From assembly GCA_963667715.1 (NCBI GenBank), contig OY763926.1, positions 2,138,201 to 2,202,200 on the forward strand: a stretch of 64,000 bases of DNA. Reading direction: 5' to 3'. The notes beneath the pieces were generated by a model that worked only from the letters and a program-made list of their open reading frames with translations, searched no databases and had not been told where the DNA came from. Both the position numbers and the translations under genes were made by a program. Numbering within the stretch: the first letter of the stretch is position 1; each line of letters starts with the position of its first letter. This document shows positions 10,143 to 51,233 of the stretch, piece by piece. Source of the stretch: Sedimentisphaerales bacterium (GTDB lineage: Bacteria > Planctomycetota > Phycisphaerae > Sedimentisphaerales > SM23-30).

Positions 10143-10181
10143 GTATTCATAAATATTATTGATATTATCAAGCTTACTTTA

Positions 10182-30111: not shown

Positions 30112-30116
30112 CTATT

Positions 30117-34245: not shown

Positions 34246-34470
34246 ACCGTGATTAGGAATTAGAGTATTTGAACAGTTGATGAAGATTTGCTTATCTACA
34301 GATCAACGGCTCGGTTATCATACTGTTCTTATTTGAGCATGAGATCAGTAGAACAGAAGACCGCAGGAGGTCTAATTCGTATGTGAGTTCAGTATCGCCA
34401 CCGGCTATTATTCTACTGCTCAACGGTTCTAATCGGTCACCTGCTCTGATTTTTTCAGTAAAGCTGAAAA

Positions 34471-34520
34471 AATCGGGCTGACAGGATTTGAACCTGCGAC
34501 CTTTTGACCCCCAGTCAAAC
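34471..34520 (-). repeat. att-type direct repeat: displaced 3' portion of tRNA-Pro (anticodon stem to 3' end, plus 2 nt)
   Basis: The 50 bp are identical to 51157-51206 except for one position (t at 34489 versus c at 51175, in the T-loop). Similarity stops abruptly at both edges. Confidence 0.9.
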
Positions 34521-34555
34521 TCATTTACCCTATATTTATGCCAAAAACGCAATAG

Positions 34556-34577
34556 TCGAAATCTTTTTCGAAATCTT
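34556..34577 (+). repeat. Tandem TCGAAATCTT x2 with 12-bp phasing (candidate integrase arm-type sites)
   Basis: tcgaaatctt occurs at 34556-34565 and 34568-34577. A further gtcgaaat overlaps the integrase start (34649-34656). A related pair lies at the other island end (51065-51086). Confidence 0.5.
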
Positions 34578-34656
34578 ATCCTTGTTTTTCGCTGAAAAAT
34601 AGCTATAATAAGTTATTGGAGTACGATTATTATAGTTTAAAATAAGGTGTGTCGAA

Positions 34657-36408
34657 ATGGCAAAAAGAACCGAACCCAGATATGGTATCACAAAAGTTAA
34701 AACCGAGAATGGTCAAAATGTGAAATTGGTTAATGACTATAAGCAAAGACCGATTATGGATTTGATTTTTCAGCCATCTACCTACTACTATTTGCATAAG
34801 CGATGGAAAAATTTAAAAGCGAATGGCTACCCCAAAAACAAGTGGCACTATGGTTCCAACTTCGATATCGCCATAAAAGAGTTCAGATTAGTAGAAGCAG
34901 AATTAAGAAACAAAGATAACACATATATGCGGATTCCATATGATAGTATCAGAGAGATCGGGGAGGTCGGGGAGATAACCGAAAATAAGAGCAATGAGCA
35001 CTTTTCATCAGAATTGGCGTTAAGTTTTGCAATTCCATCTATAAATGAAACGTTAAAAATAGATAAAAATGCTCTTCTAGATATCGAATTTGTCGGTTTT
35101 TTGGAAGGAGCGAGAGAACATTTTTTGACAGCTTGTAAAAATGGCGATATAAAACCTGATGACTATGCCCCTTTATATCAATACTACAAAGAACAGGGGG
35201 CTATCATAGATGGCTTCCAGATGAACGAATCAGTCTTATATTCGTTAGTTAGAAATCTGTTAATTAATGACACCGACATGATAGCAGACAAGACAGGGCT
35301 ACCCTGCCTAAAGACCTTCCATGAACAACTAAGACAATATAAGGAGCCTTTGCCATTACTTTATACTGAGGTTCTTGAGACTTATATAGCTCAAGCGACT
35401 TGTGATGCTGGTACTAAGAACAGGGCGGTGAGATACTTTGAGAGATTTGTTGAAATTGTCGGAAAAAAGGACATGTCAAAAATCGATAAAAACGATGTCG
35501 CAAAATTCAAGAATTATCTGGATTCTCTTGTAAATTCAAGAAGCGGTAAAAAAGCATCAAACGTATCTTTGAACGCCTTTTCCAAAGATGTTAAAACAGT
35601 TCTTAATGCCTATGTAAATGAAGAAGATAGCAGCAAAGTAGAAGCGGCGCGGAATCTCGCAGAATTGATTAAAGATGGCATAGAAAGGAAGCAGACAAAG
35701 CCGAATAAAGTTCAAAAATGGGATGCTCACGCTCTATATGAGCTTTTCAATTTACCCCAAATTAAAAATGATAAGGTACTTAAATTGATGTTTTTGTTGA
35801 CTCTTAATTGCGGATGGAATTCTGTTGATGTGGCTAATTTTTCTAGGTCAGATGACAAAGAATCAAAGCATATATATCGAATAAAAGAACCGAATCCTAA
35901 CTTTAGCTATGGTTTAGAAGAAAATGAGACTAATAATAGATACCTAAAAGAACATATAATGATTGATTTTCCGCGTATAAAAATGAAATGCGTATATGAC
36001 AGACAATGTATTTTGTGGGAAAAGACAGCTGATTTGCTGGACGAATATTTAAAAGAAACTGCTGAGCTAAAAAGCGATTTTGTCTTTGTGAATCCTAAAA
36101 CAAAAACTAAATATTCCGACCAATATCTTTCTTGTAAATTCGGAGATTTTTTTGACAAGAAAAAATTAAATATGCCCAAAATTAAATTAGCTAATGACAG
36201 GAATGCCCTATTCAAACACCTGCGTTCAACACTATCTACTATCGCGCACGAGAACAGAGTGCAATATCTTGTAATAGACTTGTTTCTTGGACATTCTTTG
36301 AGAAAAGCAGGGGAGATTGGTTCTTATGTGGGCAATCTAGAAAAGGCACTCCATGAGATTGCCGATGGCGGCTACAATGATCTTAAGAATGTAATTGATA
36401 CGCTGTAG
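34657..36408 (+). CDS. Tyrosine-type site-specific integrase (long form)
   Basis: 583 aa. The C-terminal catalytic signature is LFKHLRSTLSTIA...DLFLGHSLRKAGEIGSYV (HxxR ... LGH ... Y). The gene sits next to the att repeat. Confidence 0.8.
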   Translation: MAKRTEPRYGITKVKTENGQNVKLVNDYKQRPIMDLIFQPSTYYYLHKRWKNLKANGYPKNKWHYGSNFDIAIKEFRLVEAELRNKDNTYMRIPYDSIREIGEVGEITENKSNEHFSSELALSFAIPSINETLKIDKNALLDIEFVGFLEGAREHFLTACKNGDIKPDDYAPLYQYYKEQGAIIDGFQMNESVLYSLVRNLLINDTDMIADKTGLPCLKTFHEQLRQYKEPLPLLYTEVLETYIAQATCDAGTKNRAVRYFERFVEIVGKKDMSKIDKNDVAKFKNYLDSLVNSRSGKKASNVSLNAFSKDVKTVLNAYVNEEDSSKVEAARNLAELIKDGIERKQTKPNKVQKWDAHALYELFNLPQIKNDKVLKLMFLLTLNCGWNSVDVANFSRSDDKESKHIYRIKEPNPNFSYGLEENETNNRYLKEHIMIDFPRIKMKCVYDRQCILWEKTADLLDEYLKETAELKSDFVFVNPKTKTKYSDQYLSCKFGDFFDKKKLNMPKIKLANDRNALFKHLRSTLSTIAHENRVQYLVIDLFLGHSLRKAGEIGSYVGNLEKALHEIADGGYNDLKNVIDTL

Positions 36409-36673
36409 TTTGGATTTGACAACTAATGCCTGGCTCTTAGTTGTTTTGCTAAAAATGTGTATTTCACCCTATTCCAGCAATATAATTTTAATTATAAGAT
36501 TTTGTTTCTCGTCTTTCTGGCAAGATTCTACGCTGTATTTAGGATTATTATCTATGTATTTTAATATCTTATTTTTAACATATTCCTGTTTATTATTCTG
36601 TTCTATATTTTCTGTTATTGCCATTTTTGCAACTCATTATCTTGGAGATATTTGGACAAATTATAAAATAATT

Positions 36674-37273
36674 CTATTGGTGTTTTCTAATAATAGAATA
36701 TATAGTTGGTATAGAAATACCGACAGTTCGGCTAATTTCAGCTTTTGAGAGTCCTTGTTGTAGTAATGCCAGAACAGGTTTTATCTTGCAAGCTGTTTTA
36801 GGTTTTACCCCTTTTTTGCTTCCTCCCCATATCTTCCCTCTCGCCTTTGCAGCAGCTTGTCCGGATGTCACTCTTTCAGCTCTAATTTCTGTTTCATACG
36901 CAGATACTGAGGCGATTATGTTGGCATTCAATCGTCCGGCAGGGGTGCTCAAATCCAAATGGTCTTTAAGGCTGATTAGATTACACTGGAAATGTTGAAG
37001 TTCTTCGAAAAGCTTAGTTAGCCCTGATGCTGTTCTGCCTAAGCGATCCAGACGATATATAACAATCTGGTCTATTTTAGAATTACGCAGATCTTCCAAA
37101 AGTTTTGACATTGCGGGTCTATCCATACTTTTACCAGTAAACTTGTCTTTATACCATTTTACATTATGCGGTTGATGGGTATCAATCCATCTAGTCAATT
37201 CATCTTCCTGGCTGTCAAGTTTCTGCTGAATTGTGGAGATACGACAATATATTGCTGTTATTTTCTTACTCAT
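36674..37273 (-). CDS. Serine recombinase (resolvase/invertase family)
   Basis: 199 aa. The N-terminal catalytic motif is AIYCRISTIQQ, followed by VIYRLDRLGRT. The C-terminal HTH is LSKAEISRTVGISIPTIYSII. Confidence 0.9.
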   Translation of the reverse strand: MSKKITAIYCRISTIQQKLDSQEDELTRWIDTHQPHNVKWYKDKFTGKSMDRPAMSKLLEDLRNSKIDQIVIYRLDRLGRTASGLTKLFEELQHFQCNLISLKDHLDLSTPAGRLNANIIASVSAYETEIRAERVTSGQAAAKARGKIWGGSKKGVKPKTACKIKPVLALLQQGLSKAEISRTVGISIPTIYSIIRKHQ

Positions 37274-37783
37274 AGCTCTACCTCGAATCGATAAAAATCA
37301 TCTTTACTTCATTTTTTATGCTTTACGTTATTAAAAAGCGGGGTTTATGCTTCAAAATGGCATGTTAGCAAACCAATATTCATTTTTTATGGTTTTATAG
37401 TGTTTTACAGTGTTAGTTTGTTTCAAGTTTAGATTTCAAGCCGAAAACCATTAATATTAATTGTAGTCAAAAAAGTGGAAATTAATAGTAAATAAACAAA
37501 AAACTATACAAGAAAGTATATTTAATGTTAGCTTGTGTCAAATGTGGAATTTTTCTATACTTTATGCCAAATATGTAACTTATCTCTATTGGTCGATGAA
37601 TCTGTTTAATGCAGCTAGATTTTTCCCAAAATAATAATAAAAATAATATTTATTCTTGGTATTTGATGATAATTATATTGAAATATGTCTTTGACTTAAG
37701 TGTTGCAAATAGTTATTATAGATATTTGTTCTAACTATTTATTATAAGGGATTTTATATTGATTTTCAAGGCGTAATAATGAT

Positions 37784-40700
37784 ATGGCTAGTGAGTTTAT
37801 AACTAATAAAGATAAAAAATTATCAGATGTAATTAATAACATATTGCCAGCAACTGACAATTTGTATTTTCTGGTTGGTTATTTTTACTTTTCCGGCTTC
37901 GAGAAAATATACAAGCAAGTTATTGATAAGAAATTGAAAATACTAGTTGGGCTTCAAATTGAAATCGATTTGACGAACAGAATCAAAGAGTTGTATTTTC
38001 TTGAAAAATTGAATATTTCTAGGGCTAAAGTAAGGGATAATTATCTTCAATCAATAGTTGATGTATTTAATGAAACTGATATATTTGATACTGAAGAAAA
38101 ACAAGATGCTTTCAGGCTATTTATCGATAAAATTCATGATGGAACCATGGAAATAAGAAAAACTCAGGAATCAAATCATGCAAAATTATATATCTTCGAG
38201 AACAAAACGGAGCAAAATCATGGTGGGGAATTTCTGGGGACAGTTATTACAGGCTCAAGCAATCTAACACATTCAGGACTTGAGGGAAGGTTTGAGATCA
38301 ATGTCAGCTTGAGGGATAATTATAACTTTACGCTAGCCCAAAATCTCTTTCTTGAGCTATGGGAAAAATCAGTCGTAATCGTTGATGAGAATAATAAAAA
38401 TGATTTTTTGAATAAGGTTGTAGAAAAAATATGGCTAGATAAGCTGCCAAAGCCTTTTTTACTTTATATAAGAGTTCTTGCCGAATATTTTGCGGAGCAA
38501 GAAGAGTTAATTACGCTGCCTGCTGATATTACTGATGGAAAATATTTTAACTTTAAGTATCAAGTAGATGCAATTAAAAGAGCTATTGGTATTATTGAAC
38601 GTCATAATGGTGTTATAGTTGCTGATGTAGTAGGTCTTGGGAAAAGTATTATTGCTTCTACCGTTGCTCATAATTTAAATCTAAAAACCATTGTAATAGC
38701 TCCTCCACATCTTGAACAGCAGTGGAATGACTATAGATATGAGTTTAGCTTCAATGCCAAGGTGTATAGTTCTGGTAAAATAAAAACGGCATTGGAAGAA
38801 AATCTTGATGATGAACAAAAGCTTATAATCATTGACGAAGCTCATAAGTACAGAAACGAATTAAATGCGGATTATGCCTATTTGCACCAGTTATGCCAGC
38901 AAAACAAGGTAATGCTTCTCACGGCTACGCCTTTTAATAATCGTCCTCAAGATATATTTTCTATGATTAAGTTGTTCCAGATACCCACACGGTCAACTAT
39001 AAGAACAATAGAGAACTTGTCTTATCAGTTTTATAGTTTAATACTGCGTTATAAAGAAATCAAAAAGATACAGCGTAGTAAAACTGAAAGTCAGCAAGAA
39101 ATAGAAAAACGCATTAATGAAGTTGCTAATGAGATCAGAGATATACTTTCCCCTCTGATCGTTAGAAGAAGTCGTTTAGACCTTGAGGCTATTGAGGAGT
39201 ATAAGGAAGATTTAGTTCAGCAAAATATATCATTTCCTGTTGTAAATGATCCGATTGAACTTGAATATAACCTTGATGATATAGAAGAGCTGTATGCAAA
39301 TACATTGCATAAAATTTGCCCCCAGAACGAAGATGAAGGTTTTATCGGTGCACGATATATGCCGGTTAACTATGTAAAGAATTTTGATAAATACAAAAAG
39401 AATATAGCTAAAGATATGGGGATCGACGAGAACTTGTTAAAGCAATCACAGGTTAACTTAGCAAAATTTATGCGGAGGCTTTTAGTTAGAAGATTTGAAA
39501 GTTCAATGGAATCATTTAGGCTGTCTCTAAGGTCGATGATAAAATCTTCTGAGACTATTGAAAGCTGGTATGAAAAGAAGGGCGGAGTACCTGTTTTTAA
39601 GAAAGGTGACCTCCCTGGTCCTGAAGATTTACTTAATCTTACAGGTGATGATGCTCTCAAAACTCTTGATGAATTACTTGAAGATGAAAAACTGGACAAA
39701 TACGTTCAGCGTGGGTTATGGTTTATTGAGAAAAAAGAACTTAAGGTAGGCTTTATCCTTCAAGTTAAAAAGGATATTCAGCTACTTAAGGAGATATATA
39801 ATGACTGGTTCGGCAATAGAATTATTTCTGATCCAAAGCTTAGTCATTTTACAGAGCTAATTAAATCCCAATTAAGAAGTGATCCAACAAGAAAAATAGT
39901 AGTATTCACTGAATTTGCCGATACCGCAAATTACTTATATGAATCTCTCAAGGATGGTTTAAGGATATTCAAATACTCATCATCTGATAATACTAAAGAA
40001 AATAAGCAGACTATCAGATCGAACTTTGATGCTGGTTATGACAAGCCAGAAAATGATTTTGATATTTTGATTGCAACAGATGCGATATCTGAAGGTTATA
40101 ATTTACATCGAGCAGGTACAATATTTAATTATGATATACCATATAATCCTACAAGAGTAATTCAGCGCGTAGGTAGAATTAATCGAATAAACAAAAAAGT
40201 CTTTGATGAGTTGTTTATCTATAATTTCTTTCCTAGTGCTACAGGCGAAAAAGAAACTCACATTAAAGAAATTGCTACTCTAAAAATGGATATGATACAT
40301 GCCTTGCTTGGTGAAGATACCATGGTTTTGACAGATCAGGAGAAGCTTGGTTCTCGCTTTGCGGTACAGTTCAAGGAACAAATTGGTAAACAGGAACAGT
40401 TATCACCTGAAGCAAAGTACGAAAATCTGATAAAGAATTACAGAGCATATAATCAAGATATTATAAATGAAGCTCTTGCAGTTCCGAAAAGAGTAAAAAT
40501 TAAACGTTCATTCAAAAAGGATGAGGATGGAGTTTTATTATTTGCCCGCAAAGGGAAAGAATACGTATTCAAGCTTACAAAACCGGAGGGTGAATCAACG
40601 AATCTGACCTCAGCTAAAGGTTTAGAATTATTTGAAGCAGAACTACAGGAAGACCCGCATGAGGTTTCAAAAGTATTTGATAAAGTTTACCAGATTGCAA

Positions 40701-41023
40701 AGTCAAATCTCTTTATTACCAAGACCGTGATGACAAAAGATAAAGGCAAAAAAGATGCTATAGCAAAATTGAAATTGCTGAAAAAAGACTTTTCTCAATA
40801 TCGTGACTATCTTGAAGATTTGGTATATGTTGCTGAAAAGCTGGATGCATTGCCGGAAAGATACCTGAAAATGATACGGGCTATTAGCATAGATACAATA
40901 GAACAGGATATGAACAGTTTTATTGATGAAGTATCTACCACATATCTTAGTAAAATAATTGATCGTGAACAAGCTATAGCAAATGAGAAGGAATCCCTAA
41001 TCATAGCAGAGGAATTGATTTAA
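37784..41023 (+). CDS. PLD-like nuclease domain fused to an SNF2/DEAH-family helicase
   Basis: 1079 aa. The N-terminal HKD-like motif is NHAKLYIFE...GTVITGSSNLT. Helicase motifs: I ADVVGLGKSIIA, II IIIDEAHKYRN, III LLTATPFNN, VI VIQRVGRINR. Confidence 0.85.
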   Translation: MASEFITNKDKKLSDVINNILPATDNLYFLVGYFYFSGFEKIYKQVIDKKLKILVGLQIEIDLTNRIKELYFLEKLNISRAKVRDNYLQSIVDVFNETDIFDTEEKQDAFRLFIDKIHDGTMEIRKTQESNHAKLYIFENKTEQNHGGEFLGTVITGSSNLTHSGLEGRFEINVSLRDNYNFTLAQNLFLELWEKSVVIVDENNKNDFLNKVVEKIWLDKLPKPFLLYIRVLAEYFAEQEELITLPADITDGKYFNFKYQVDAIKRAIGIIERHNGVIVADVVGLGKSIIASTVAHNLNLKTIVIAPPHLEQQWNDYRYEFSFNAKVYSSGKIKTALEENLDDEQKLIIIDEAHKYRNELNADYAYLHQLCQQNKVMLLTATPFNNRPQDIFSMIKLFQIPTRSTIRTIENLSYQFYSLILRYKEIKKIQRSKTESQQEIEKRINEVANEIRDILSPLIVRRSRLDLEAIEEYKEDLVQQNISFPVVNDPIELEYNLDDIEELYANTLHKICPQNEDEGFIGARYMPVNYVKNFDKYKKNIAKDMGIDENLLKQSQVNLAKFMRRLLVRRFESSMESFRLSLRSMIKSSETIESWYEKKGGVPVFKKGDLPGPEDLLNLTGDDALKTLDELLEDEKLDKYVQRGLWFIEKKELKVGFILQVKKDIQLLKEIYNDWFGNRIISDPKLSHFTELIKSQLRSDPTRKIVVFTEFADTANYLYESLKDGLRIFKYSSSDNTKENKQTIRSNFDAGYDKPENDFDILIATDAISEGYNLHRAGTIFNYDIPYNPTRVIQRVGRINRINKKVFDELFIYNFFPSATGEKETHIKEIATLKMDMIHALLGEDTMVLTDQEKLGSRFAVQFKEQIGKQEQLSPEAKYENLIKNYRAYNQDIINEALAVPKRVKIKRSFKKDEDGVLLFARKGKEYVFKLTKPEGESTNLTSAKGLELFEAELQEDPHEVSKVFDKVYQIAKSNLFITKTVMTKDKGKKDAIAKLKLLKKDFSQYRDYLEDLVYVAEKLDALPERYLKMIRAISIDTIEQDMNSFIDEVSTTYLSKIIDREQAIANEKESLIIAEELI

Positions 41024-41024
41024 T

Positions 41025-44000: not shown

Positions 44001-44333
44001 TATTTTGTGATCAGAACACACAGGCTAAATATGAAATATTTAACTGGATTCATGAATAGTAAAATTGTTAAGTTCTGGCTTAAAAATAAAGGAAAGATGC
44101 AAGGAGATAATTATCAGGTGGATAAAGCTCCATTGATGAGCATTCCAGTCATGAGACCATCTACGGAAATTCAAAACAAAATTGAAGAGATGGTTGATAC
44201 GATCATTGAATTAAGAGCAAATAGCCATGACGATAATATCCCTAAACATGAAGATTCAATAAATACGATAGTATTTGACATGTTTGATCTTAGTGATGAT
44301 GATATTGCTATTATTGAGGATTCTATTAAATAA
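41025..44333 (+). CDS. Eco57I/PglX-like N6-adenine DNA methyltransferase (large form, no recognisable nuclease domain)
   Basis: 1102 aa. Motifs: GSYYTPREVVDYMV, the SAM-binding motif ILDPACGSGAFP, and the catalytic motif IIIGNPPYIKEY. A long C-terminal region is compatible with a target-recognition domain. The start lies 1 nt after the helicase stop. Confidence 0.85.
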   Translation: MKYDFNAKYHRSNFLNFLKNDFLPDDLELFDEKIDLEFAPNHIQTVAKVGEVKSLGLTVFEVLHNSENDPRVTLSRDVFRLISNLSIERALVVFHTNKSENYRLSLVTIEFKLNKNKLTREYSNPKRYSYFLGPRAKTNTPEQFLTKGRVSSLTELQNCFSIEVVNRQFYQEIATVFTELTGGQRDIGSRHIDAGNGCLIIPGGNNEKTRKEFAVRLIGRLVFCWFLKKKISSNNVPLIPDDVLSLQALNENSNYYHYILEPLFFETLNKNLEHRHPKYQTKPWDIIPFLNGGLFDPHEEDYYEFDRITGVSGKYINILKVPDEKIKELVTIFETYNFTIDENTSVDIELSIDPEMLGRIFENLLAEINPETGETARKASGSYYTPREVVDYMVDKSLEHYLIANLGIEHTSDVKSLLNYVEDSPSISEEIVDKALDALYNIKILDPACGSGAFPMGVLQKILLILQKLDPESGKWLERLLDDIDDETVKEYLRTHMNTDYIHKLGMIRDSIYGIDIQPIATEISKLRVFLSLIIEENIKDGEPNRGIEPLPNLEFKFVCANTLISLGEQIDFTNNDKALKLQKKLERIRKKYLSSSGESKQKIKDEYKNIKDKLFNEVIGLMWSKASKRMEQLSTWNPFADEPCGWFDSKFMFGVDKGFDIIIGNPPYIKEYTSRAAFDGVREEQYYQGKMDIWYLFACNAIDWLKNNGVHCFIATNNWITNAGASKLRNKVVNETNILQFVDFGNYKIFDNADIQTMVYVLSKSKRPKKYSVNYSRLNNPNVTRDYLSTFLKSDFQTDNYTKRDVEFDRAKFKDKYISFCESNTEVVLKKILDKSNFNFTNDEVAQGIVAPQDFVNRKSASKLGNKYKIGFGIFVLSDEEKNTLNLDEAELKLLKPYYTSNELFKYYGNRNNQQWVIYTRSNINSTIDDYLNIKEHLDRFASVITSDNAPYGLHRARKEHFFQDEKIISIRKCSEPSFTYTDFDCYVSQTYFVIRTHRLNMKYLTGFMNSKIVKFWLKNKGKMQGDNYQVDKAPLMSIPVMRPSTEIQNKIEEMVDTIIELRANSHDDNIPKHEDSINTIVFDMFDLSDDDIAIIEDSIK

Positions 44334-44351
44334 AATTTTGTGAGAGTTTTT

Positions 44352-46325
44352 ATGGCACGAAAAAAAGTAACAGCAGGTAAAGACTTTATACAAAAAATTG
44401 GTATCACTGATCCAATTTCTGCTTTAGCTGAGTTGATTTGGAATTCCTTTGATGCTGGTGCCAATACTGTTGAAGTAGTTCTTCGCTCAAATGGTACTGG
44501 AGCAGTCCAGGATATAGAGATAATAGATGATGGTGAAGGGATTGCATACGAGGAACTTGCTCAGGCATTTGGTAACCTTGGCAATTCTAAAAAACTTACT
44601 AATAAAGAAACGGTCAATGGGAGATTAGTTCACGGCAAAGAGGGCAAAGGGAGATTTAAGACTTTTTCATTATGTAATAAGCCTATATGGGTAACTGTGT
44701 TTAAAAATGACAATGAATATTATAAGCATATAATATCTATTGATAATGTCTTTTCAGATGAATATGACGACTCAGATCCAGAAGTCTCCCCGCTAAAGAA
44801 AACTGGAACAACAGTTATTCTTAAAGATATCCTGCAAGGACAGAATTCATTAGCAAGGGATGATGCGAAAATAAAGGTCGCAAAGCATTTTGTTTTGTAT
44901 TTACTTAATTATCCAGGACTATCACTTGTTTTTGACTCACGCAAAATCGTTATTGATGATTTTATTAAAACCAAAAAAACATACAATCTACCTACGGGAA
45001 ATAATGATAAGCTTACTGTAATTGAATGGAACGAAAGACTTGAGAGTAAACAATTACATCTGTGCAATGAGCATGGTTTTTGTCGGCATGAAATTGCTGC
45101 TGGGGTACATGCTCCTGGAATTGAATATTCAGCCTACCTGCAATCAACAATGATTGAAGATGTATATAATTCAGGGAATTTAGGCTTGGGTGATATGAGT
45201 TTAGACCTGATAAAGCTCATTGATGTTGCTAAAGATACTATCAGGGATCATATTCGTAAGCGTCTGGCAGAAGAAGCTGGTGATATTGTTAAAGAGTGGA
45301 AAGAGCAAAACATATATCCATATTCAGATGACGAGCCAACCGGACCAATAAAAGAAGCTGAAAGAGAAGTCTTTGATATTGTTGCTATAACGATCAATGA
45401 GCAGCATCCGACATTTAAGCGAAATGATCTCTCAAATAAAAAACTAACTCTGGCTTTAGTTAAGCAGGCATTAGAAACAAATCCATCTGGCATTTCCAAG
45501 ATACTTCAGGAATTGCTATCTTTACCTAAAGAAGAACAAGATGGTTTGGTAGAGCTACTGCAAAGAACCACCTTGAGTTCCATTATTAAAGCCAGTTCAG
45601 TCGTTGCAGATCGCTTAGATGCCATTGGAGCATTTGAGCATATTATCTTTAATAGTAATTGGAAGAAGACTCTTCTGGAAAGAACGCAACTTCATAGACT
45701 GCTTGTGCATCATCTTTGGATTTTTGGAGAAGGTTATACGTTGGATAGTGACGATGAGTCATTAACTGCTATTCTTGAAAAGCATATTAAGAAACTTGGC
45801 AGAAAGAAAATTATTGAGGATGTAAATGTTAAAACAGTATCAGGAATCAATGGTATTCCTGACCTATTGCTTTCAAAACAATTTACTCATTCCCATGAAT
45901 TATTTGAAAATCTTGTAATTGAACTTAAAAGACCCTCAATTAAACTTGGTAATACTGAATTGACACAGATAGAAGATTATGCTATTACAGTTTCAGAAGA
46001 TGAAAGATTCGATACAGATAGATACAAATGGAAGTTTATTTTAGTTGGGAATAATTATGATAGGTTTGTGAAAGCAAAAATCAACCAACCACGTTTTCCT
46101 AAATATTGCTCTATGGACTCTGGAAATGTACAGGTTTATGTTAGAACTTGGGCAGATATTTTCGCTGATGCTAAATTGAGATATAAGTTTTTTAGTGAAA
46201 AGCTTGAGATTGAAGCTAAAACCGAAAGTGGTATGGCAAATTTTCAAGAGAAGTATGGTCATTTGATTACCGGGAATGGTATGTCTAAGAAGAAGGAAAA
46301 AGAAGCAGGTAAGGCTCCCAAATAA
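44352..46325 (+). CDS. GHKL-type ATPase (HATPase_c_3-like) fused to a PD-(D/E)xK nuclease-like C-terminal domain
   Basis: ATG 44352, with GTG 44340 also possible. Bergerat-fold boxes: ALAELIWNSFDAGA (N box), IEIIDDGEGI (G1), HGKEGKGRF (G2). The C-terminus WIFGEGY...GIPDLLLSKQF...ENLVIELKRPSIKLG...QIEDY fits a D...E-x-K nuclease core resembling DUF4263/Shedu-type domains. Confidence 0.75.
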   Translation: MARKKVTAGKDFIQKIGITDPISALAELIWNSFDAGANTVEVVLRSNGTGAVQDIEIIDDGEGIAYEELAQAFGNLGNSKKLTNKETVNGRLVHGKEGKGRFKTFSLCNKPIWVTVFKNDNEYYKHIISIDNVFSDEYDDSDPEVSPLKKTGTTVILKDILQGQNSLARDDAKIKVAKHFVLYLLNYPGLSLVFDSRKIVIDDFIKTKKTYNLPTGNNDKLTVIEWNERLESKQLHLCNEHGFCRHEIAAGVHAPGIEYSAYLQSTMIEDVYNSGNLGLGDMSLDLIKLIDVAKDTIRDHIRKRLAEEAGDIVKEWKEQNIYPYSDDEPTGPIKEAEREVFDIVAITINEQHPTFKRNDLSNKKLTLALVKQALETNPSGISKILQELLSLPKEEQDGLVELLQRTTLSSIIKASSVVADRLDAIGAFEHIIFNSNWKKTLLERTQLHRLLVHHLWIFGEGYTLDSDDESLTAILEKHIKKLGRKKIIEDVNVKTVSGINGIPDLLLSKQFTHSHELFENLVIELKRPSIKLGNTELTQIEDYAITVSEDERFDTDRYKWKFILVGNNYDRFVKAKINQPRFPKYCSMDSGNVQVYVRTWADIFADAKLRYKFFSEKLEIEAKTESGMANFQEKYGHLITGNGMSKKKEKEAGKAPK

Positions 46326-46343
46326 TTTTTTGTTATTACCGTA

Positions 46344-46380
46344 CCCCCATCCCCATCCCCTTGGGATCGATTACCTCCCC
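46344..46380 (-). repeat. C-tract cluster (G-tracts on the minus strand) directly after the operon
   Basis: The plus strand has ccccc at 46344-46348, cccc at 46351-46354, cccc at 46357-46360 and cccc at 46377-46380, including the tandem ccccat ccccat. This is conspicuous in an otherwise AT-rich island. Confidence 0.5.
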
Positions 46381-47275: not shown

Positions 47276-49009
47276 TTGAGTGTAAACAATAGAAGGAAAA
47301 GCATTTTAAAGACGTATGAACCGTCAATGAAATATCTAAAACAAATGAGAAGGGATATAGACGATTTATATCGTCCAGAACCTAAATTGAATAAAGATAC
47401 TGGATTGCTGCATTATACTGTAAGACAATACTCAAAGTTCATGAAGCAATTTACAACGTTTGAGACTTATGGAACTGGTGAACAAAAGAAATGGGTTATA
47501 TCACCAAATCTTAGGAAAGACTTAAGCAAAGAAAACTATGAATATTATCAACTATGCAAAGCGAATAATCGTAAGTATATACCATTACATAACTTTAAAT
47601 TAAGAACATTCATTAGTCCACTAGATAGCTCTATCCCTTCATTAGAAGGACATTTATGTGGTAATCATTCTATTCTTTATAACAATGATGATACGGGCAA
47701 ATTTGCCCTTGTAGTAATAGACATAGATTTCCATATTGATTCCAATATTGATAATGATTCTTTAGATATGACTAATCATATCATAAATAACTTTCACGAT
47801 GGTATTTACTTTGATAAATCAACGAAAAAGAGGGGATATCATCTATATTTGCTTGTTTATAAAGAAGGATATATAGCCCAGGAAATTAATGATATTCTAA
47901 AAAAATATAATAGAATTTTATCTTATTACTATAATGTAATACTTGATTATAATTGTGATTATGATGGCGTAAAAGCCAATTTAAAGCATTATAAAGAAGA
48001 TTGGTCGATTTATTGTGGAAGTTTATGCAAAGCTCCAAGACCTGATCTGGAAGACATAGAACAATGTGGGATATTATTTAATTCAAATAAGGTTCACACC
48101 ATATATGATATCATGATTAATGCATGTAAGGTCAATGATTTGATTGTTGACTATTACTCGCATAATGAAACAAAAATGACAAAGAAAGAGATAGATAGAC
48201 TCTGTAGTGTATTAATTGATGATCCCTCAAAGAATAAAATCAAAAGACTCATTAAGACCCCAAGGAAAAACAGAAGGAAAAATAAGAGAGCTAATAAGAA
48301 AAATAACAATATAAATATAGAAAATAACTCTATTATACAATTTGGTACAAAATTGAGTGATAGGTCATATCAAGATATAGTTGAAGAGTTGAGGTTATAT
48401 CCTTTATCTGATACATTGCAAAAGAGTAAAGACTTTTATTTCCACTACTGTAGGCTTAAAGGCTGCTGTGTAAGTCCTGAAGAAGCTGAAAGGGAATATG
48501 TAGACCAAGGGCTTAACAATACCCTGGGGAGTACTGAGAGTCGTGTGCAGCGTTTTGTGAAAATGAACATGCACGAGTATTTTGATATAAGTAAAATTAA
48601 AAAGAATTATATGCCAGCTATAATTGATAATATCAAACAAATTATGGGTGAGAGTGACCTGAAGTATCACGATGGTAAAAATCGGAGAATAACATATGAT
48701 GATATTGCTTTATATATTCACCATATCCTAGTAATAAAAAAGAATGAGGGAACTTTTGGATATTTGGCATTTCAGCAGGTATATAGTAGATATTTTGGTA
48801 AAAAAATAGCCAGAAACGCCATTGCTCAGATTAAGAAGGTCTTGTCAGATAAAATGATACTTGAATCCAATTTTGATTTAAAAAACATCGGTAAAAAGGG
48901 GGCTGATAATATGATCATTCTTAAAGAGATTATAGAAGACAAGCAAACGTTCTTGCAGGCGTATTATAGAAGAGGGGGAGATTGTAGTAATGAGAGATGT
49001 ATCGGTTAA
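47276..49009 (+). CDS. Putative replication protein, primase-polymerase (AEP)-like
   Basis: 577 aa, starting at TTG 47276 or ATG 47327. GKFALVVIDIDFH (DxD-type metal site) and KKRGYHLYLL (G-x-H-x-Y) resemble AEP prim-pol motifs I and III. There is a basic low-complexity stretch PRKNRRKNKRANKK. The assignment is tentative. Confidence 0.4.
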   Translation: MSVNNRRKSILKTYEPSMKYLKQMRRDIDDLYRPEPKLNKDTGLLHYTVRQYSKFMKQFTTFETYGTGEQKKWVISPNLRKDLSKENYEYYQLCKANNRKYIPLHNFKLRTFISPLDSSIPSLEGHLCGNHSILYNNDDTGKFALVVIDIDFHIDSNIDNDSLDMTNHIINNFHDGIYFDKSTKKRGYHLYLLVYKEGYIAQEINDILKKYNRILSYYYNVILDYNCDYDGVKANLKHYKEDWSIYCGSLCKAPRPDLEDIEQCGILFNSNKVHTIYDIMINACKVNDLIVDYYSHNETKMTKKEIDRLCSVLIDDPSKNKIKRLIKTPRKNRRKNKRANKKNNNINIENNSIIQFGTKLSDRSYQDIVEELRLYPLSDTLQKSKDFYFHYCRLKGCCVSPEEAEREYVDQGLNNTLGSTESRVQRFVKMNMHEYFDISKIKKNYMPAIIDNIKQIMGESDLKYHDGKNRRITYDDIALYIHHILVIKKNEGTFGYLAFQQVYSRYFGKKIARNAIAQIKKVLSDKMILESNFDLKNIGKKGADNMIILKEIIEDKQTFLQAYYRRGGDCSNERCIG

Positions 49010-49313
49010 TGGCAATACTATAGTGATAATCGAGATATTATAGTAAGGCTACTGAGTTACAGTTAAGCAAATAGCAACGATAGTGTTTTTCATCTACGCA
49101 GGAGGCAATCTAGTACGTTTTACATTTCCATAATTTAATATTGAAAAAGCATCTATTCCTTATATTAGTTAGATTGCTACGTATCAACCAACTAGTTATA
49201 AGGATGAGTATTATGAATAATTATGAAATTCATTTTCGGTTTAATGGAAGTTTTTATAAGGAGCTGATTACCTGTCAAAATGGCTTTAAAGCTCGTGATC
49301 TGATAAAAGCTAA

Positions 49314-50678
49314 GGGAGTGTTCATTTAACTGTGTAAATGGTCTCCATTATTATATGGGCAGAAACATATCTGCCCGTATTTTACATATTCATTCTATCG
49401 CCGAACTTAATGGCGAATTGGTTCATTGCTGTGTTCCAGCATCTAATTGGCATTGTCCATTTTTTAGAGATATTTTCAAGAGCCAAGTAAAATATCTTCA
49501 TTATCGAAGCTTCGCTAGGGAATGCTCCTTTGGTTTTAATAACCTTACGTAGAGATCTATTAAGTGATTCTATGGCATTAGTAGTATAAATAGCCTTGCG
49601 GATATCTGCCGGGTAATCAAAAAATGGAATGATATGTTGCCAGTTATTTCGCCAGCTTTTACTGATCATAGGGTATTTGCTATCCCACTTATCAGCAAAG
49701 TCGTCTAGTGCCATCTCTGCTTGTTGCTCGGTAGCTGCGGTATAGATCAGCTTCAGGTCAGCACATAACTCCTTGCGTTCTTTCCAGTTAACAAATCGAG
49801 TGGAGTTACGTATCATATGCACAATACAAAGCTGAACCTGGGTTTGAGGAAAAACTGATTCTATAGCTTCCGGAAAGCCCTTCAAGCCATCAACACATGC
49901 TATGAATATATCTTTTACTCCACGATTCTGAAGTTCGGTAATAACACCCAACCAGAACTTAGCTCCTTCTGTTTTAGCTATCCAGATACCTAAAAGCTCT
50001 TTCATGCCATCCATATTGACACCCAGAGCAAGATATACTGATACATTAGCCACCTTGCCATCCTGACGGCATTTGACCACTATGCAGTCAAGGAACACTA
50101 TAGGATATATGGGATCTAAGGGACGGTTATGCCAGGCTTTAACTTCCTCCATAATACTCTCTGTAGCCTGGCTGATAAGACCTTCTGAGACATCTACCTG
50201 ATACATATCCAACAGACTTGCCTGAATATCACGAACACTCATGCCGCGACCGTACATGGCGATTATTTTATCATTAAATCCTTCAAAGCATCTCTCACCT
50301 TTAGGTATAAGCTTAGGCTCAAAGGTGCTTTTGCGGTCTCGAGGGGGATTTAGCTCTACTTCATCGGAATCGATAACAACAGCCTTTTTGCCTCTGCCAT
50401 TACGGCTGTTACCGCTATTATTGCCTTTGGGGTCGTGTTTACTATAACCCAGATGATCACTCATCTCCGCATCCAATGCTCGCTCAACTATTCGCTTTTT
50501 CAACTCAGCAAATAATCCAGATTCACCCCAGAACTTCTCCGGTGTGCAGTAACCATCTAGTAATTCATCAATTAACGAATCTTTACGCTTCTCGGATTCT
50601 GTGCGTTTAGCCATAAATTTACCTCCATATAAAAGATAACATATTTATGATCATTTACACAGTTAAATGAACACTCCC
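49314..50678 (-). mobile_element. IS256-family insertion sequence (1365 bp), apparently intact
   Basis: Perfect 27-bp terminal inverted repeats: gggagtgttcatttaactgtgtaaatg at 49314-49340 and its reverse complement at 50652-50678. An 8-bp target-site duplication aaagctaa lies at 49306-49313 and 50679-50686. The element has a single transposase ORF. Confidence 0.92.
49382..50614 (-). CDS. IS256-family (Mutator-type) transposase
   Basis: 410 aa. Hallmark segments: ERALDAEMSDHLGY, IFIACVDGLKGFPEAI and YTTNAIESLNRSLRKV. Confidence 0.95.
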   Translation of the reverse strand: MAKRTESEKRKDSLIDELLDGYCTPEKFWGESGLFAELKKRIVERALDAEMSDHLGYSKHDPKGNNSGNSRNGRGKKAVVIDSDEVELNPPRDRKSTFEPKLIPKGERCFEGFNDKIIAMYGRGMSVRDIQASLLDMYQVDVSEGLISQATESIMEEVKAWHNRPLDPIYPIVFLDCIVVKCRQDGKVANVSVYLALGVNMDGMKELLGIWIAKTEGAKFWLGVITELQNRGVKDIFIACVDGLKGFPEAIESVFPQTQVQLCIVHMIRNSTRFVNWKERKELCADLKLIYTAATEQQAEMALDDFADKWDSKYPMISKSWRNNWQHIIPFFDYPADIRKAIYTTNAIESLNRSLRKVIKTKGAFPSEASIMKIFYLALENISKKWTMPIRCWNTAMNQFAIKFGDRMNM

Positions 50679-50750
50679 AAAGCTAAGTATCCTGGTGCGC
50701 AGATTACTTCTGTTTCTCATATTAAATAAAATCAAAAACTAATCTGAATT

Positions 50751-50796
50751 AGACCATTGAGCTGAACTGGGATACGCTTAATGGTCTTATTTTTTA
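50751..50796 (+). terminator. Possible terminator of the IS-disrupted small ORF
   Basis: agaccatt (50751-50758) pairs with aatggtct (50780-50787), followed by tatttttt. The loop is long, so this call is weak. Confidence 0.35.
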
Positions 50797-51064
50797 ATAA
50801 ATCTTTTGTCCCAATGAAAGGAGTGGTAGAGAACGTAATTTGTTATACCTGGAGTAATTTTATAGTTCCGGTAGCGTAGATAATTAGGTAAACAGTTTTG
50901 AACATATCAATGAGCTATTATGGAAATTCTGCAATAATGACCAAGATCGCCGTCAGGTATATGATACATCTGGTAAGTTATATCTGTTGACCACACCTGG
51001 TTAGATTTATCTTTTTCGCTAAATGATTGACTTTTACCGCTGATAATCTTTCGATTTGATGAAA

Positions 51065-51086
51065 GTCGAAACCTTTGTCGAAACCT
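51065..51086 (+). repeat. Tandem GTCGAAACCT x2 with 12-bp phasing (candidate arm-type sites, right end)
   Basis: gtcgaaacct occurs at 51065-51074 and 51077-51086. Related tttcga/tcgaaa elements lie immediately around it. The same core occurs in the left-end repeats. Confidence 0.5.
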
Positions 51087-51156
51087 ATTGATTTCGATGG
51101 ATATGTGACTAAAACATCTATTATAGCCCAATTACCTATAGAAAAAGGACTTATGC

Positions 51157-51206
51157 AATCGGGCTGACAGGATTCGAACCTGCGACCTTTTGACCCCCAG
51201 TCAAAC
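51157..51206 (-). repeat. att-type direct repeat within the intact tRNA-Pro
   Basis: Partner of 34471-34520, with 49 of 50 positions identical. Confidence 0.9.
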
Positions 51207-51233
51207 GCGCTAGCCAAGCTGCGCCACAGCCCG
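51159..51233 (-). tRNA. tRNA-Pro (anticodon GGG)
   Basis: Minus-strand sequence: CGGGCTGTGGCGCAGCTTGGCTAGCGCGTTTGACTGGGGGTCAAAAGGTCGCAGGTTCGAATCCTGTCAGCCCGA. It folds as a cloverleaf: acceptor CGGGCTG/CAGCCCG, D stem GCGC/GCGC, anticodon stem TTTGA/TCAAA, loop CU-GGG-GG, T arm GCAGG-TTCGAAT-CCTGT. CCA is not encoded. Confidence 0.9.

What the first reader, a model, noticed from the sequence alone, without database searches (positions are those of the whole stretch)
34471..51233. 16.7 kb integrative island in tRNA-Pro(GGG) with exact attL/attR footprint
A 50-bp segment covering the tRNA from the anticodon stem to the 3' end, plus 2 nt, is present twice in direct orientation (34471-34520 and 51157-51206). 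The two copies differ at one position, in the T-loop: TTCAAAT in the orphan copy versus TTCGAAT in the intact gene. Similarity ends abruptly on both sides. The orphan copy is followed by what looks like the original weak tRNA terminator hairpin (ttttcag/ctgaaaa at 34451-34470). The integrase gene starts 137 nt inside the left repeat. The enclosed DNA is visibly more AT-rich than either flank. The integrase lies at the end distal to the intact tRNA, so the 3' tRNA half now in use was supplied by the element. This defines the element precisely enough to predict the excised circle junction and the empty site.
Basis: seen in the sequence. Interest (0 to 1): 0.6.

Follow-up and report, generated by a model that had tools for sequence, protein, structure and literature searches.

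The report
Mobile defence island in tRNA-Pro gene
A 16.7-kb piece of foreign DNA carrying anti-phage genes has inserted into a proline tRNA gene in the textbook way, and its only unusual feature is a very divergent, almost unique integrase that standard island finders would miss.

Summary
One tRNA-Pro(GGG) gene lies at 51159-51233 on the minus strand. Its 3' portion (G26 to A73, plus 2 nt) recurs at 34471-34520 with 49/50 identity, in direct orientation, and nowhere else in the window. The enclosed DNA has 34.0% GC, against 41-43% in the flanks.

This is a classical tDNA-integrated genomic island with an anticodon-centred att site.
- **Integrase:** the gene just inside the orphan fragment encodes a 583-aa tyrosine recombinase. 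It scores below Pfam's threshold. It has N388 where the canonical first catalytic arginine sits. It has only one close relative among billions of proteins searched.
- **Relative:** that relative (57% identity) also sits about 125 nt from a tRNA-Pro(GGG) 3' fragment ending at the same position, and is followed by R-M/defence-type genes.
- **Arm sites:** the motif TCGAAAYCT occurs four times in 64 kb. All four are tandem pairs within about 100 nt of the two island ends, which suggests arm-type binding sites.
- **Polarity:** a related Sedimentisphaerales genome has an uninterrupted tRNA-Pro(GGG) at the syntenic spot, with the orphan's T-loop variant.
- **Cargo:** a PLD-SNF2 helicase, a type IIG-like methyltransferase and a GHKL ATPase, plus a serine recombinase, an orphan ORF and an IS256 copy.

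This is a new member of a known kind. No empty site from the same species was found, and present-day mobility is untested.

The parts
51159..51233 (-). Regenerated tRNA-Pro(GGG) gene. The 5' part (51207-51233) is chromosomal. The 3' part, within the identity block 51157-51206, is inferred to come from the element's attP. T-loop is TTCGAAT.
   Evidence: ARAGORN; Rfam RF00005 at 63.4 bits; repeat D1
34471..34520 (-). Displaced chromosomal 3' fragment of tRNA-Pro(GGG), G26 to A73 plus 2 nt. T-loop is TTCAAAT. This is the far att site of the island.
   Evidence: Repeat D1, 49/50 identical. Partial tRNA hit below threshold, 27.2 bits. Joined to 51207-51233 it gives a valid tRNA-Pro. It has the same T-loop variant as the uninterrupted tRNA in relative L003.
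34448..34474 (-). AT-rich 11-bp hairpin just past the displaced fragment. It may be the native tRNA trailer structure. It is not a canonical terminator.
   Evidence: dG -11.5 kcal/mol, z = -2.68. Not called by the terminator scan and no T-run follows.
34555..34577 (+). Tandem pair of (G/T)TCGAAATCTT motifs, 12 nt apart. Candidate arm-type integrase binding sites on the int-proximal arm.
   Evidence: All 4 matches to TCGAAAYCT in 64 kb lie at the two island ends; about 1.0 match is expected anywhere in the window.
51065..51087 (+). Tandem pair of GTCGAAACCT(T/A) motifs, 12 nt apart, in the same orientation as the left pair. Candidate arm-type sites on the other attP arm.
34657..36408 (+). 583-aa divergent tyrosine recombinase, the island integrase. 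It has a SAM-like core-binding region (about residues 240-340) and a catalytic domain with R440-x-K442, K520-x-x-R523, H546 and Y557. N388 sits at the canonical Arg I position.
   Evidence: phrog_1 integrase, E 7.6e-11. PF00589 at 14.8 bits, below the 27.1 cutoff, and PF13102 at E 0.011. Ten of ten distant relatives tested carry PF00589. The clade profile matches XerA 5hxy at E 7e-17 and places Y/N at Arg I.
36674..37273 (-). 199-aa small serine recombinase (resolvase/invertase type with a C-terminal HTH). Role in the island unknown. Not the likely integrase.
   Evidence: PF00239, E 2e-36; phrog_125 DNA invertase, E 1.4e-48
37784..41023 (+). 1079-aa PLD-nuclease plus SNF2-helicase fusion. First gene of the defence cassette.
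   Evidence: PLDc_2, SNF2-rel_dom and Helicase_C. PADLOC 'HKD+Snf2' at 1.7e-33 and DrmD-like at 1.2e-35. A 47%-identical homologue lies next to an N6-MTase on a Parabacteroides plasmid.
41025..44333 (+). 1102-aa type IIG-like N6-adenine DNA methyltransferase with a TaqI_C-type specificity domain.
   Evidence: Eco57I at 3.6e-33, N6_Mtase, TaqI_C; PADLOC REase_MTase_IIG at 6.7e-79
44340..46325 (+). 661-aa GHKL-type ATPase, related at its N-terminus to the BbrUII/HgiDII family. A companion gene of R-M loci.
   Evidence: HATPase_c_3 at 6e-19; NF050001 at 2.9e-18; phrog_6203 at 9e-71. A homologue directly follows a type ISP R-M gene on Phaeobacter pGal_E78.
47276..49009 (+). 577-aa orphan ORF. It has weak motifs resembling an AEP primase-polymerase. 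Function unknown.
   Evidence: No family hit. PF01896 at E 0.35 only. No match in plasmids, phages or viral contigs.
49314..50678 (-). IS256-family insertion sequence, 1365 bp. It has 27-nt perfect terminal inverted repeats and a transposase gene at 49382-50614. An 8-bp target duplication AAAGCTAA flanks it at 49306-49313 and 50679-50686. It is a secondary insertion into the island.
   Evidence: NF033543 at 417 bits; Transposase_mut at 2.6e-115; IRs and duplication; GC 40.9%, like the host

Best explanation
The 16,686-bp interval is a genomic island. It consists of 16,636 bp of unique DNA (34521-51156) plus one copy of the 50-bp core. It entered the chromosome by tyrosine-recombinase site-specific recombination between an element-borne attP and the tRNA-Pro(GGG) gene.

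The attP carries a copy of the tRNA's 3' portion, from anticodon stem to 3' end. Strand exchange most likely occurred in or near the anticodon loop, with the anticodon stem arms serving as core-type sites. Integration joined the chromosomal 5' part of the tRNA to the element's 3' part, which regenerated a working gene at 51159-51233. It pushed the original chromosomal 3' part 16.7 kb downstream, to 34471-34520.

The enzyme is the 583-aa protein encoded 137 nt inside the displaced fragment. It is a heterobivalent-type integrase that probably also binds the TCGAAAYCT pairs on both attP arms. The payload is a restriction-modification-like anti-phage cassette: a PLD-SNF2 nuclease/helicase, a type IIG-like methyltransferase and a GHKL ATPase. 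An IS256 copy landed in the island later.

Shown: the repeat, the tRNA, the composition, the gene content, the remote homology, the parallel locus L001 and the motif distribution. Inferred: the crossover position, the arm-site function, which protein catalysed integration, and whether the element can still excise.
For: - **Site geometry:** there is an exact tDNA and 3'-fragment pair in direct orientation, present only twice in the window. The reconstructed attB folds as tRNA-Pro(GGG). The reconstructed attP contains no tRNA.
- **Foreign DNA:** the island has 34.0% GC against 41-43% in the flanks, p = 2e-7.
- **Integrase homology:** phrog_1 gives E 7.6e-11. PF00589 and SAM-like hits lie below threshold in the expected order. 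An all-against-all HMMER search found 21 relatives, and all 10 tested carry PF00589. The clade profile hits the XerA structure at E 7e-17. R523, H546, Y557 and R440-x-K442 are conserved.
- **Independent parallel locus:** the only close homologue, P0002 (57% identity), lies on contig L001. Its gene starts about 125 nt after a tRNA-Pro(GGG) 3' fragment whose tRNA identity ends within 1 nt of the same position. HsdM, GmrSD and KAP-NTPase genes follow it.
- **Arm motifs:** all four TCGAAAYCT matches in 64 kb are tandem pairs with 12-nt spacing and the same orientation. They lie 35-57 nt and 70-92 nt from the core at the two island ends.
- **Related genome:** in L003, a Sedimentisphaerales chromosome, the gene order inositol-phosphatase, 402-aa gene, sigma factor, FHA gene is kept. 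An uninterrupted tRNA-Pro(GGG) with T-loop TTCAAAT follows, which is the orphan's variant, and no island genes are present.
- **General principle:** island-borne sequence regenerates the target tDNA, and the displaced fragment marks the far end. Of 3919 Islander islands, 3760 have 3' fragments and 2083 have anticodon-centred sites. Non-prophage islands peak near 13.6 kb (PMC4383910).
Against: - No empty site from the same species was found. The left-junction pattern gave no hit in metagenome contigs. The source genome could not be recovered: exact-sequence look-ups found no contig record, and the genome-contig scan with the integrase alignment found no relative of the integrase.
- The window's left flank is not syntenic with the two related genomes. 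They show 'tRNA without island' but not the exact attB.
- The integrase scores below Pfam's gathering threshold and lacks the canonical first catalytic arginine (N388).
- Its AlphaFold model was unusable (pLDDT 32.6), so the active-site geometry is unverified.
- No excisionase-like gene was recognised.
- The support for polarity from the T-loop SNP rests on one relative.
Confidence: 0.85

Rival explanations
1. The island did integrate by this route but is now a fixed relic. The integrase is catalytically dead or the element lacks a directionality factor, so it no longer excises. The defence genes are in effect chromosomal.
For: - The canonical Arg I is absent (N388).
- No Xis-like ORF was found.
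- An IS256 copy has inserted into the island.
- One att mismatch exists.
Against: - The integrase ORF is full length, the same 583 aa as its 57%-identical relative. All the other catalytic residues are conserved between the two.
- The lack of Arg I is shared by all 12 sequences aligned from the clade (the two close proteins plus ten distant relatives), which argues for a lineage trait and not decay.
- There is functional precedent in the IntCTnDOT subgroup, where a downstream arginine substitutes (PMC8138268).
- The att cores are 49/50 identical. The single difference is explained by a host versus element polymorphism.
- The IS sits in a spacer or small ORF, not in int or att.
Confidence: 0.35
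2. The small serine recombinase (36674-37273), not the 583-aa protein, integrated the island.
For: It is a bona fide serine recombinase: PF00239 at 2e-36, with weak similarity to the N-terminal domains of XisF and Ccr.
Against: - It is a 199-aa resolvase/invertase type. It lacks the large C-terminal domain of serine integrases.
- Only tyrosine-family integrases are known to target tDNAs (PMC4383910).
- The parallel island L001 has the tyrosine recombinase homologue next to the same tRNA fragment, and no serine recombinase among its called genes.
Confidence: 0.03
3. The region is ancestral DNA, or an assembly chimera of a metagenome-derived genome. The half tRNA would then be a chance pseudogene or a duplication unrelated to integration.
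For: The source appears to be an uncultured-organism genome: its relatives are MAGs. Left-flank synteny with relatives is absent.
Against: - A misjoin cannot create a precisely truncated tRNA 3' half that starts at the base of the anticodon stem.
- The same truncation point recurs next to the homologous integrase in an unrelated sample.
- End-specific repeated motifs, a 7-9 point GC drop and the absence of island genes from the syntenic loci of two relatives all fit insertion.
Confidence: 0.03

Closest known systems
   Same: An intact regenerated tDNA plus a displaced 3' fragment in direct orientation. The identity block runs from the anticodon stem to the 3' end. A tyrosine recombinase gene lies at one end. 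The size is close to the 13.6-kb peak of non-prophage islands.
   Different: The integrase does not reach the PF00589 threshold that Islander uses (14.8 versus 27.1 bits), so that pipeline would discard this island. The host belongs to Planctomycetota, not the well-sampled Proteobacteria.
Elements known to integrate into tRNA-Pro genes: Streptomyces pSAM2 and Sinorhizobium phage 16-3 (recalled from memory, not checked here)
   Same: Integration into a proline tRNA gene, with an identity segment covering the anticodon region through the 3' end. pSAM2 is likewise a small (about 11 kb) non-phage integrative element.
   Different: A different isoacceptor and host phylum. No detectable conjugation (tra) or capsid functions here. 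No sequence relationship was tested.
IntCTnDOT-subgroup tyrosine recombinases (Smyshlyaev et al. 2021, PMC8138268)
   Same: A tyrosine recombinase that lacks arginine at the first position of the RKHRH pentad. In CTnDOT a downstream arginine substitutes for it. Here a near-invariant R440, two residues before K442, is a candidate for that role (inference).
   Different: No direct sequence comparison with IntDOT was possible. This protein is 583 aa, with a region of about 230 aa N-terminal to the core-binding domain. Relative to the ten distant relatives it also has an insert of about 27 aa after the Arg I motif. It targets a tRNA gene site-specifically with a 50-nt identity block.
Type ISP / type IIG restriction-modification enzymes and DISARM DrmD/DrmMI components
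   Same: The domain set is nuclease plus SF2/SNF2 helicase plus N6-adenine methyltransferase plus a TaqI_C-type specificity domain. The GHKL ATPase partner also follows a type ISP gene on Phaeobacter pGal_E78.
   Different: The domains are split over two genes. The nuclease is a PLD type. There is no DrmA/DrmB (DUF1998), PglZ or BrxC, so this is neither DISARM nor BREX.

Membership tests
tDNA-integrated genomic island (Islander definition) | Intact tRNA gene plus a cognate 3' fragment in the same orientation on the same replicon | tested here: met
tDNA-integrated genomic island (Islander definition) | Tyrosine-recombinase integrase gene inside the interval, detected with PF00589 | tested here: inconclusive
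   PF00589 scores only 14.8 bits against a cutoff of 27.1. Membership of the superfamily is supported indirectly by phrog_1 at 7.6e-11, by relatives that carry PF00589 and by the profile hit to XerA at 7e-17.
tDNA-integrated genomic island (Islander definition) | The displaced fragment can restore the tRNA, so attB is reconstructible | tested here: met
   The in-silico attB gives tRNA-Pro(GGG); the attP junction gives none.
tDNA-integrated genomic island (Islander definition) | Island absent from the same site in related genomes (empty site) | tested here: inconclusive
   L003 has an uninterrupted tRNA-Pro(GGG) after the orthologous FHA gene and no island genes. Its downstream flank differs from the window's left flank. 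No hit from the same species was found.
tDNA-integrated genomic island (Islander definition) | Excision to a circle and regeneration of attB | not testable with these tools
   This needs reads or PCR from the source population.
Tyrosine recombinase superfamily (catalytic R-K-H-R-H/W-Y) | Arg I in the box I motif (G-x-R-x-x-E) | tested here: not met
   The window has LNCGWN388SVD391. Alignments to XerA and to a XerC-like protein place Arg I opposite the clade's Y/N/T/H position. All 12 aligned sequences lack Arg there.
Tyrosine recombinase superfamily (catalytic R-K-H-R-H/W-Y) | Arg II, His/Trp III and the tyrosine nucleophile in box II | tested here: met
   R523 is nearly invariant. H546 and Y557 are invariant in the 12-sequence alignment and identical in P0002.
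Tyrosine recombinase superfamily (catalytic R-K-H-R-H/W-Y) | Beta-hairpin lysine, and His II (the H of H-x-x-R) | tested here: inconclusive
   R440-I-K442-M-K444 aligns with the XerA 'VRSGKGDK' hairpin, so the lysine is plausible but its exact register is uncertain. The His II position holds K520 (KHLR).
Tyrosine recombinase superfamily (catalytic R-K-H-R-H/W-Y) | Tyrosine-recombinase catalytic fold | tested here: inconclusive
   AlphaFold2 with a 2-sequence alignment gave pLDDT 32.6, so no fold search was justified.
Heterobivalent (lambda-type) integrases | Arm-type binding sites on both attP arms, distinct from the core sites | tested here: inconclusive
   Tandem TCGAAAYCT pairs occur only at the two island ends, which fits arm sites. 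Binding was not tested, and the motif is not shared by L001's single visible arm.
IS256 family insertion sequence | IS256-type DDE transposase, terminal inverted repeats and an 8-9 bp target duplication | tested here: met
   NF033543 at 417 bits against a cutoff of 150; 27-nt perfect IRs and the 8-bp duplication AAAGCTAA.
DISARM / BREX defence systems | Core genes DrmA plus DrmB (DUF1998) for DISARM; PglZ plus BrxC for BREX | tested here: not met
   Only partial DrmD-like and PglX-like domain hits, far below the NCBIfam cutoffs. No DUF1998, PglZ or BrxC domain appears in any island ORF.
Type ISP restriction-modification | A single polypeptide combining nuclease, helicase-like ATPase, methyltransferase and target-recognition domain | tested here: not met
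   The same domain set is split over two adjacent genes, 37784-41023 and 41025-44333. The split pair is conserved on a Parabacteroides plasmid.

The most novel reading that the evidence does not exclude
The 583-aa protein and its single close relative may found a previously unrecognised lineage of tyrosine integrases. The lineage would be defined by several traits: no arginine at the Arg I position, an extra region of about 230 aa N-terminal to the core-binding domain, and an insert of about 27 aa in the catalytic domain. It would be dedicated to the anticodon region of tRNA-Pro(GGG) and would ferry interchangeable anti-phage cassettes in Planctomycetota-like anaerobes. Because it falls below the PF00589 threshold, islands of this type would be missed systematically by island-finding pipelines. 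Its active site would use a relocated arginine (candidate R440), as IntDOT does.
Probability: 0.45. Interest if true: 0.45.

Novelty: new member of a known kind. Interest (0 to 1): 0.3.

Why it matters
- **A cleanly delimited element.** It gives a single-nucleotide-resolved mobile defence island in an order (Sedimentisphaerales-like, Planctomycetota) where mobile elements are barely described.
- **A blind spot in island finders.** Island finders that require a PF00589 hit would reject a textbook tDNA island here, because the integrase is too divergent.
- **A possible genetic tool.** The int gene plus an attP of about 250 bp (roughly 51050-51206 joined to 34521-34580) is a candidate site-specific integration module for tRNA-Pro(GGG) in genetically intractable planctomycetes.
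- **A second arginine-less clade.** After IntCTnDOT, this clade offers another natural case for studying how tyrosine recombinases relocate a catalytic arginine.

None of this overturns current understanding.

Tried and rejected
- **Exact-sequence look-ups** of window proteins (sigma factor, FHA protein, integrase, P0001) found no contig records. Other strains of the same species could not be retrieved.
- **Integrase alignments against collections.** Alignment A3 was too diverse to make search patterns. Alignment A4 found no relative in genome contigs or viral contigs.
- **A second homology search** with the clade alignment returned only the same two proteins. No deep alignment was therefore available for structure prediction. 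The AlphaFold model from 2 sequences was unusable (pLDDT 32.6), and I ran no fold search.
- **Junction and fragment searches.** The left-junction DNA pattern had no hit in metagenomes. A pattern for orphan tRNA-Pro fragments found 4 metagenome contigs (L018-L021), none encoding this integrase, and no viral contigs.
- **Short contigs** carrying closer FHA homologues (86% and 75% identity) had no tRNA.
- **orf577** had no match in plasmids, phages or viral contigs.
- **Invertible segments.** I looked for inverted repeats that could define a segment controlled by the serine recombinase. Only weak AT-rich matches appeared, so I dropped the idea.
- **ORF 36395-36748** (117 aa) looks spurious: low complexity, overlapping the serine recombinase gene.
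- **Papers not held.** Kim et al. 2010, Wood & Gardner 2015 and Williams 2002 were unavailable. Details about IntDOT R285 and about Williams' site classes are from memory.

Full report
**1. Observation**

ARAGORN finds a single tRNA gene in the 64-kb window: tRNA-Pro(GGG) at 51158-51234 on the minus strand. Rfam places it at 51159-51233 with 63.4 bits.

The repeat finder reports a 50-nt direct repeat at 34471-34520 and 51157-51206. It is 49/50 identical, with start-to-start spacing of 16,686 nt. On the tRNA, the block runs from G26 (the base before the anticodon stem) through discriminator A73 plus two trailer bases.

The single mismatch (34489 T versus 51175 C on the plus strand) is T-loop position 57. 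The orphan has TTCAAAT and the intact gene has TTCGAAT.

The 37-nt and 22-nt cores occur only twice in the window even with three mismatches allowed. None of 100 shuffles gave a match. So this is not a dispersed repeat.

The enclosed DNA has 34.0% GC (33.4% without the IS). The left flank has 41.0% and the right flank 42.9%. No 16.6-kb window of the left flank falls below 40.0%. A Mann-Whitney test on 1-kb windows gives p = 2e-7.

The hairpin beside the orphan copy exists (34448-34474, dG -11.5 kcal/mol, z = -2.7). No T-run follows it and the terminator scan did not call it.

**2. What is inside**

| Coordinates (strand) | Feature | Main evidence |
|---|---|---|
| 34657-36408 (+) | 583-aa protein, the integrase (section 3) | |
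| 36674-37273 (-) | 199-aa small serine recombinase of resolvase/invertase type | PF00239 at 2e-36 |
| 37784-41023 (+) | 1079-aa PLD-nuclease/SNF2-helicase fusion | |
| 41025-44333 (+) | 1102-aa type IIG-like N6-adenine methyltransferase with a TaqI_C specificity domain | |
| 44340-46325 (+) | 661-aa GHKL ATPase | HATPase_c_3, phrog_6203 at 9e-71 |
| 46326-47275 | Gene-poor stretch of 950 nt | |
| 47276-49009 (+) | 577-aa orphan ORF | no family hits |
| 49314-50678 (-) | IS256-family element: 1365 bp, 27-nt perfect inverted repeats, 8-bp target duplication AAAGCTAA | |

The IS has host-like GC (40.9%), so it is a secondary arrival.

The helicase and methyltransferase pair is conserved as adjacent genes on a Parabacteroides distasonis plasmid, at 47% identity. 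A homologue of the GHKL ATPase directly follows a type ISP R-M gene on Phaeobacter plasmid pGal_E78.

The cargo is therefore a restriction-modification-like defence cassette. It is not DISARM or BREX: no DrmA/DrmB, PglZ or BrxC was found.

**3. Is the 583-aa protein an integrase?**

At default thresholds it has no Pfam, NCBIfam or PADLOC hit.

- PHROGs gives phrog_1 (integrase) at E 7.6e-11 over residues 238-548.
- At relaxed thresholds PF13102 (SAM-like core-binding domain) matches residues 251-322 at E 0.011.
- PF00589 matches residues 441-547 at 14.8 bits, below the 27.1 cutoff.

The protein is almost unique. A word-indexed search of 5.8 billion proteins returned only itself and one 57%-identical protein, P0002. 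An exhaustive HMMER scan of 1.84 billion cluster representatives found 21 relatives at E <= 1e-3. Only P0002 scored below 1e-30.

All ten distant relatives that I tested carry PF00589 above threshold. A profile of the clade matches the solved XerA recombinase at E 7e-17. The protein therefore belongs to the tyrosine recombinase superfamily, by transitive homology.

In the alignment H546 and Y557 are invariant. R523 and R440 (in the motif R440-x-K442) are nearly invariant.

The canonical Arg I position is different. The XerA and XerC-like alignments both place Arg I opposite N388 in the window protein, within the motif LNCGWN388SVD391. None of the 12 aligned sequences has Arg there.

There is precedent for this. 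In the IntCTnDOT subgroup the first arginine is missing, and in CTnDOT it is functionally replaced by a downstream arginine (PMC8138268). R440 is my candidate for that role; this is inference. AlphaFold2 with only two sequences gave an unusable model (pLDDT 32.6), so the active-site geometry is unverified.

**4. Independent support for integrase and site linkage**

P0002 lies on a 7.2-kb Logan contig, L001. The contig starts with TGAACCTGCGACCTCTTGACCCCCAGTCAAA. This is a tRNA-Pro(GGG) 3' fragment in the same orientation, with one anticodon-stem difference that marks a different host. Its tRNA identity ends within 1 nt of the window's boundary.

The integrase gene starts about 125 nt further in. 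HsdM, GmrSD and KAP-NTPase genes follow it. Two diverged copies of this integrase thus sit in the same geometry next to the same half tRNA, each followed by different genes of restriction-modification or defence type.

A more distant clade member, P0012 (L025), is preceded at about 116 nt by a 20-nt sequence resembling a tRNA T-loop-to-3'-end. This is suggestive only. P0013 shows no such fragment.

**5. Candidate arm-type sites**

The motif TCGAAAYCT occurs four times in the 64-kb window, against 1.03 expected. All four are tandem pairs with 12-nt spacing, in the same orientation. They lie at 34556/34568 (35-57 nt from the core) and at 51066/51078 (70-92 nt from the core).

In the reconstructed attP these pairs flank the core on both arms. 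That layout is expected for a heterobivalent integrase. Binding is inferred, not shown.

**6. Host and comparison with relatives**

The source genome itself could not be retrieved. The closest orthologues of the right-flank genes are in two Sedimentisphaerales (Planctomycetota) MAGs.

| Right-flank gene | Identity to the two MAGs |
|---|---|
| FHA protein | 72-78% |
| Sigma factor | 58-69% |
| Inositol monophosphatase | 68-70% |

In L003 (OY759675, a 4.24-Mb chromosome) the order inositol-phosphatase, 402-aa gene, sigma factor, FHA gene is kept. An uninterrupted tRNA-Pro(GGG) follows at 10517-10593. Its T-loop is TTCAAAT, the orphan's variant. The proS gene comes next, with no island genes.

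This fits the expected polarity. The displaced fragment is the original chromosomal half, and the TTCGAAT half now in use came with the element. It also places the crossover on the anticodon side of the T-loop.

The support is limited in three ways:
- It rests on one relative.
- L002 lacks the tRNA at this spot.
- The window's left flank is not syntenic with either relative, so the exact attB was not observed.

A species-specific left-junction pattern found nothing in metagenome contigs.

**7. Mechanism**

The best-supported account is classical integration. An attP carrying the tRNA's G26-to-3'-end segment recombined with the chromosomal tRNA-Pro(GGG), most likely in the anticodon loop with the stem arms acting as core sites.

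This regenerated the gene with element-derived 3' sequence and displaced the native 3' half. Joining the 5' part to the orphan half in silico restores a valid tRNA-Pro(GGG).

This is exactly the signature that the Islander database exploits. Of its 3919 islands, 3760 have 3' fragments and 2083 have anticodon-centred sites. Its non-prophage size peak is at 13.6 kb (PMC4383910).

The predicted excised circle is 16,686 bp. I put 0.85 on this origin. Whether the element still moves is open (about even odds):
- In favour: int and both att cores are intact.
- Against: no excisionase was recognised and an IS has landed in the island.

**8. Rivals**

- **Integration by the serine recombinase** is unlikely. 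It is the small resolvase type. tDNA targeting is known only for tyrosine integrases (PMC4383910). L001 has no serine recombinase among its called genes.
- **Ancestral DNA or an assembly chimera** cannot explain a precisely truncated half tRNA that recurs next to the homologous integrase in another sample. Nor can it explain the end-specific motifs or the GC drop.

**9. Novelty and verdict**

The kind of element is thoroughly known. The particular points here are:
- an integrase so divergent that it fails PF00589, so Islander-type pipelines would reject the island;
- a catalytic motif without the canonical Arg I;
- near-uniqueness among billions of proteins searched;
- a host from a poorly studied planctomycete order;
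- a split type-ISP-like defence cassette as cargo.

I rate it a new member of a known kind, with interest 0.3.

Noticed in passing
window 49306-50686: An IS256-family insertion sequence lies inside the island. It is 1365 bp, with 27-nt perfect inverted repeats and a perfect 8-bp target duplication AAAGCTAA. Its GC (40.9%) matches the host, not the island, so it looks like a recent secondary insertion. It splits a small ORF of about 47 aa.
   Followed up: yes
window 47276-49009: This 577-aa ORF has no family hit and no match in plasmid, phage or viral collections. Two short motifs (VVIDIDFH and KKRGYHLYLL) resemble motifs I and II of archaeo-eukaryotic primase-polymerases. PF01896 reaches only E 0.35. 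It could be a replication protein of the excised element.
   Followed up: partly
window 46326-47275: A 950-nt stretch with no convincing ORF and no Rfam match lies between the defence cassette and orf577. It might hold an origin or regulatory RNA.
   Followed up: partly
window 36674-37273: A small serine recombinase (invertase/resolvase type) is encoded between the integrase and the defence cassette. No convincing inverted repeats define an invertible segment. Its role is unknown.
   Followed up: partly
L024 9001-15664 (Parabacteroides distasonis plasmid NZ_OY725763) and L023 3055-9968 (Phaeobacter pGal_E78): The PLD-SNF2 helicase and the large N6-methyltransferase recur as an adjacent gene pair (47% identity) on a Bacteroidota plasmid. 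The GHKL ATPase homologue directly follows a single-chain type ISP R-M gene in Phaeobacter. The cassette looks like a split type-ISP-like system with an ATPase partner.
   Followed up: partly
L019 154-10685 (metagenome contig Ga0315336_1003201): In a high-GC organism a separate island of about 10.4 kb sits in tRNA-Pro(GGG), with a perfect 48-nt direct repeat at 182-229 and 10638-10685. A second 47-nt repeat lies just downstream of each copy (267-313 and 10761-10807), which hints at tandem related elements. L020 and L021 also carry orphan tRNA-Pro(GGG) halves, and none of L018-L021 encodes a relative of the window's integrase. L021 has integrase-like coding sequence next to its fragment. This tRNA appears to be a recurrent target.
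   Followed up: partly
L025 37-56; L026 2115-2162: The distant integrase relative P0012 is preceded by a 20-nt sequence resembling a tRNA T-loop-to-3'-end. The locus of relative P0013 has a hit to the Acido-Lenti-1 RNA motif below threshold (33.1 bits against a 37-bit gathering score).
   Followed up: no
window 32-15346: Three consecutive giant ORFs (1634, 1724 and 1586 aa) on the plus strand at the start of the window were not examined.
   Followed up: no
window 27552-34245: The left flank is not syntenic with the two related Sedimentisphaerales genomes. It carries a PqqD/M50-peptidase/HlyD fusion-like protein, a GNAT, a hydrolase and a gene of the 23S-rRNA-intervening-sequence protein family. 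It dips to 35.7% GC at 33-34 kb and may itself be variable DNA.
   Followed up: no
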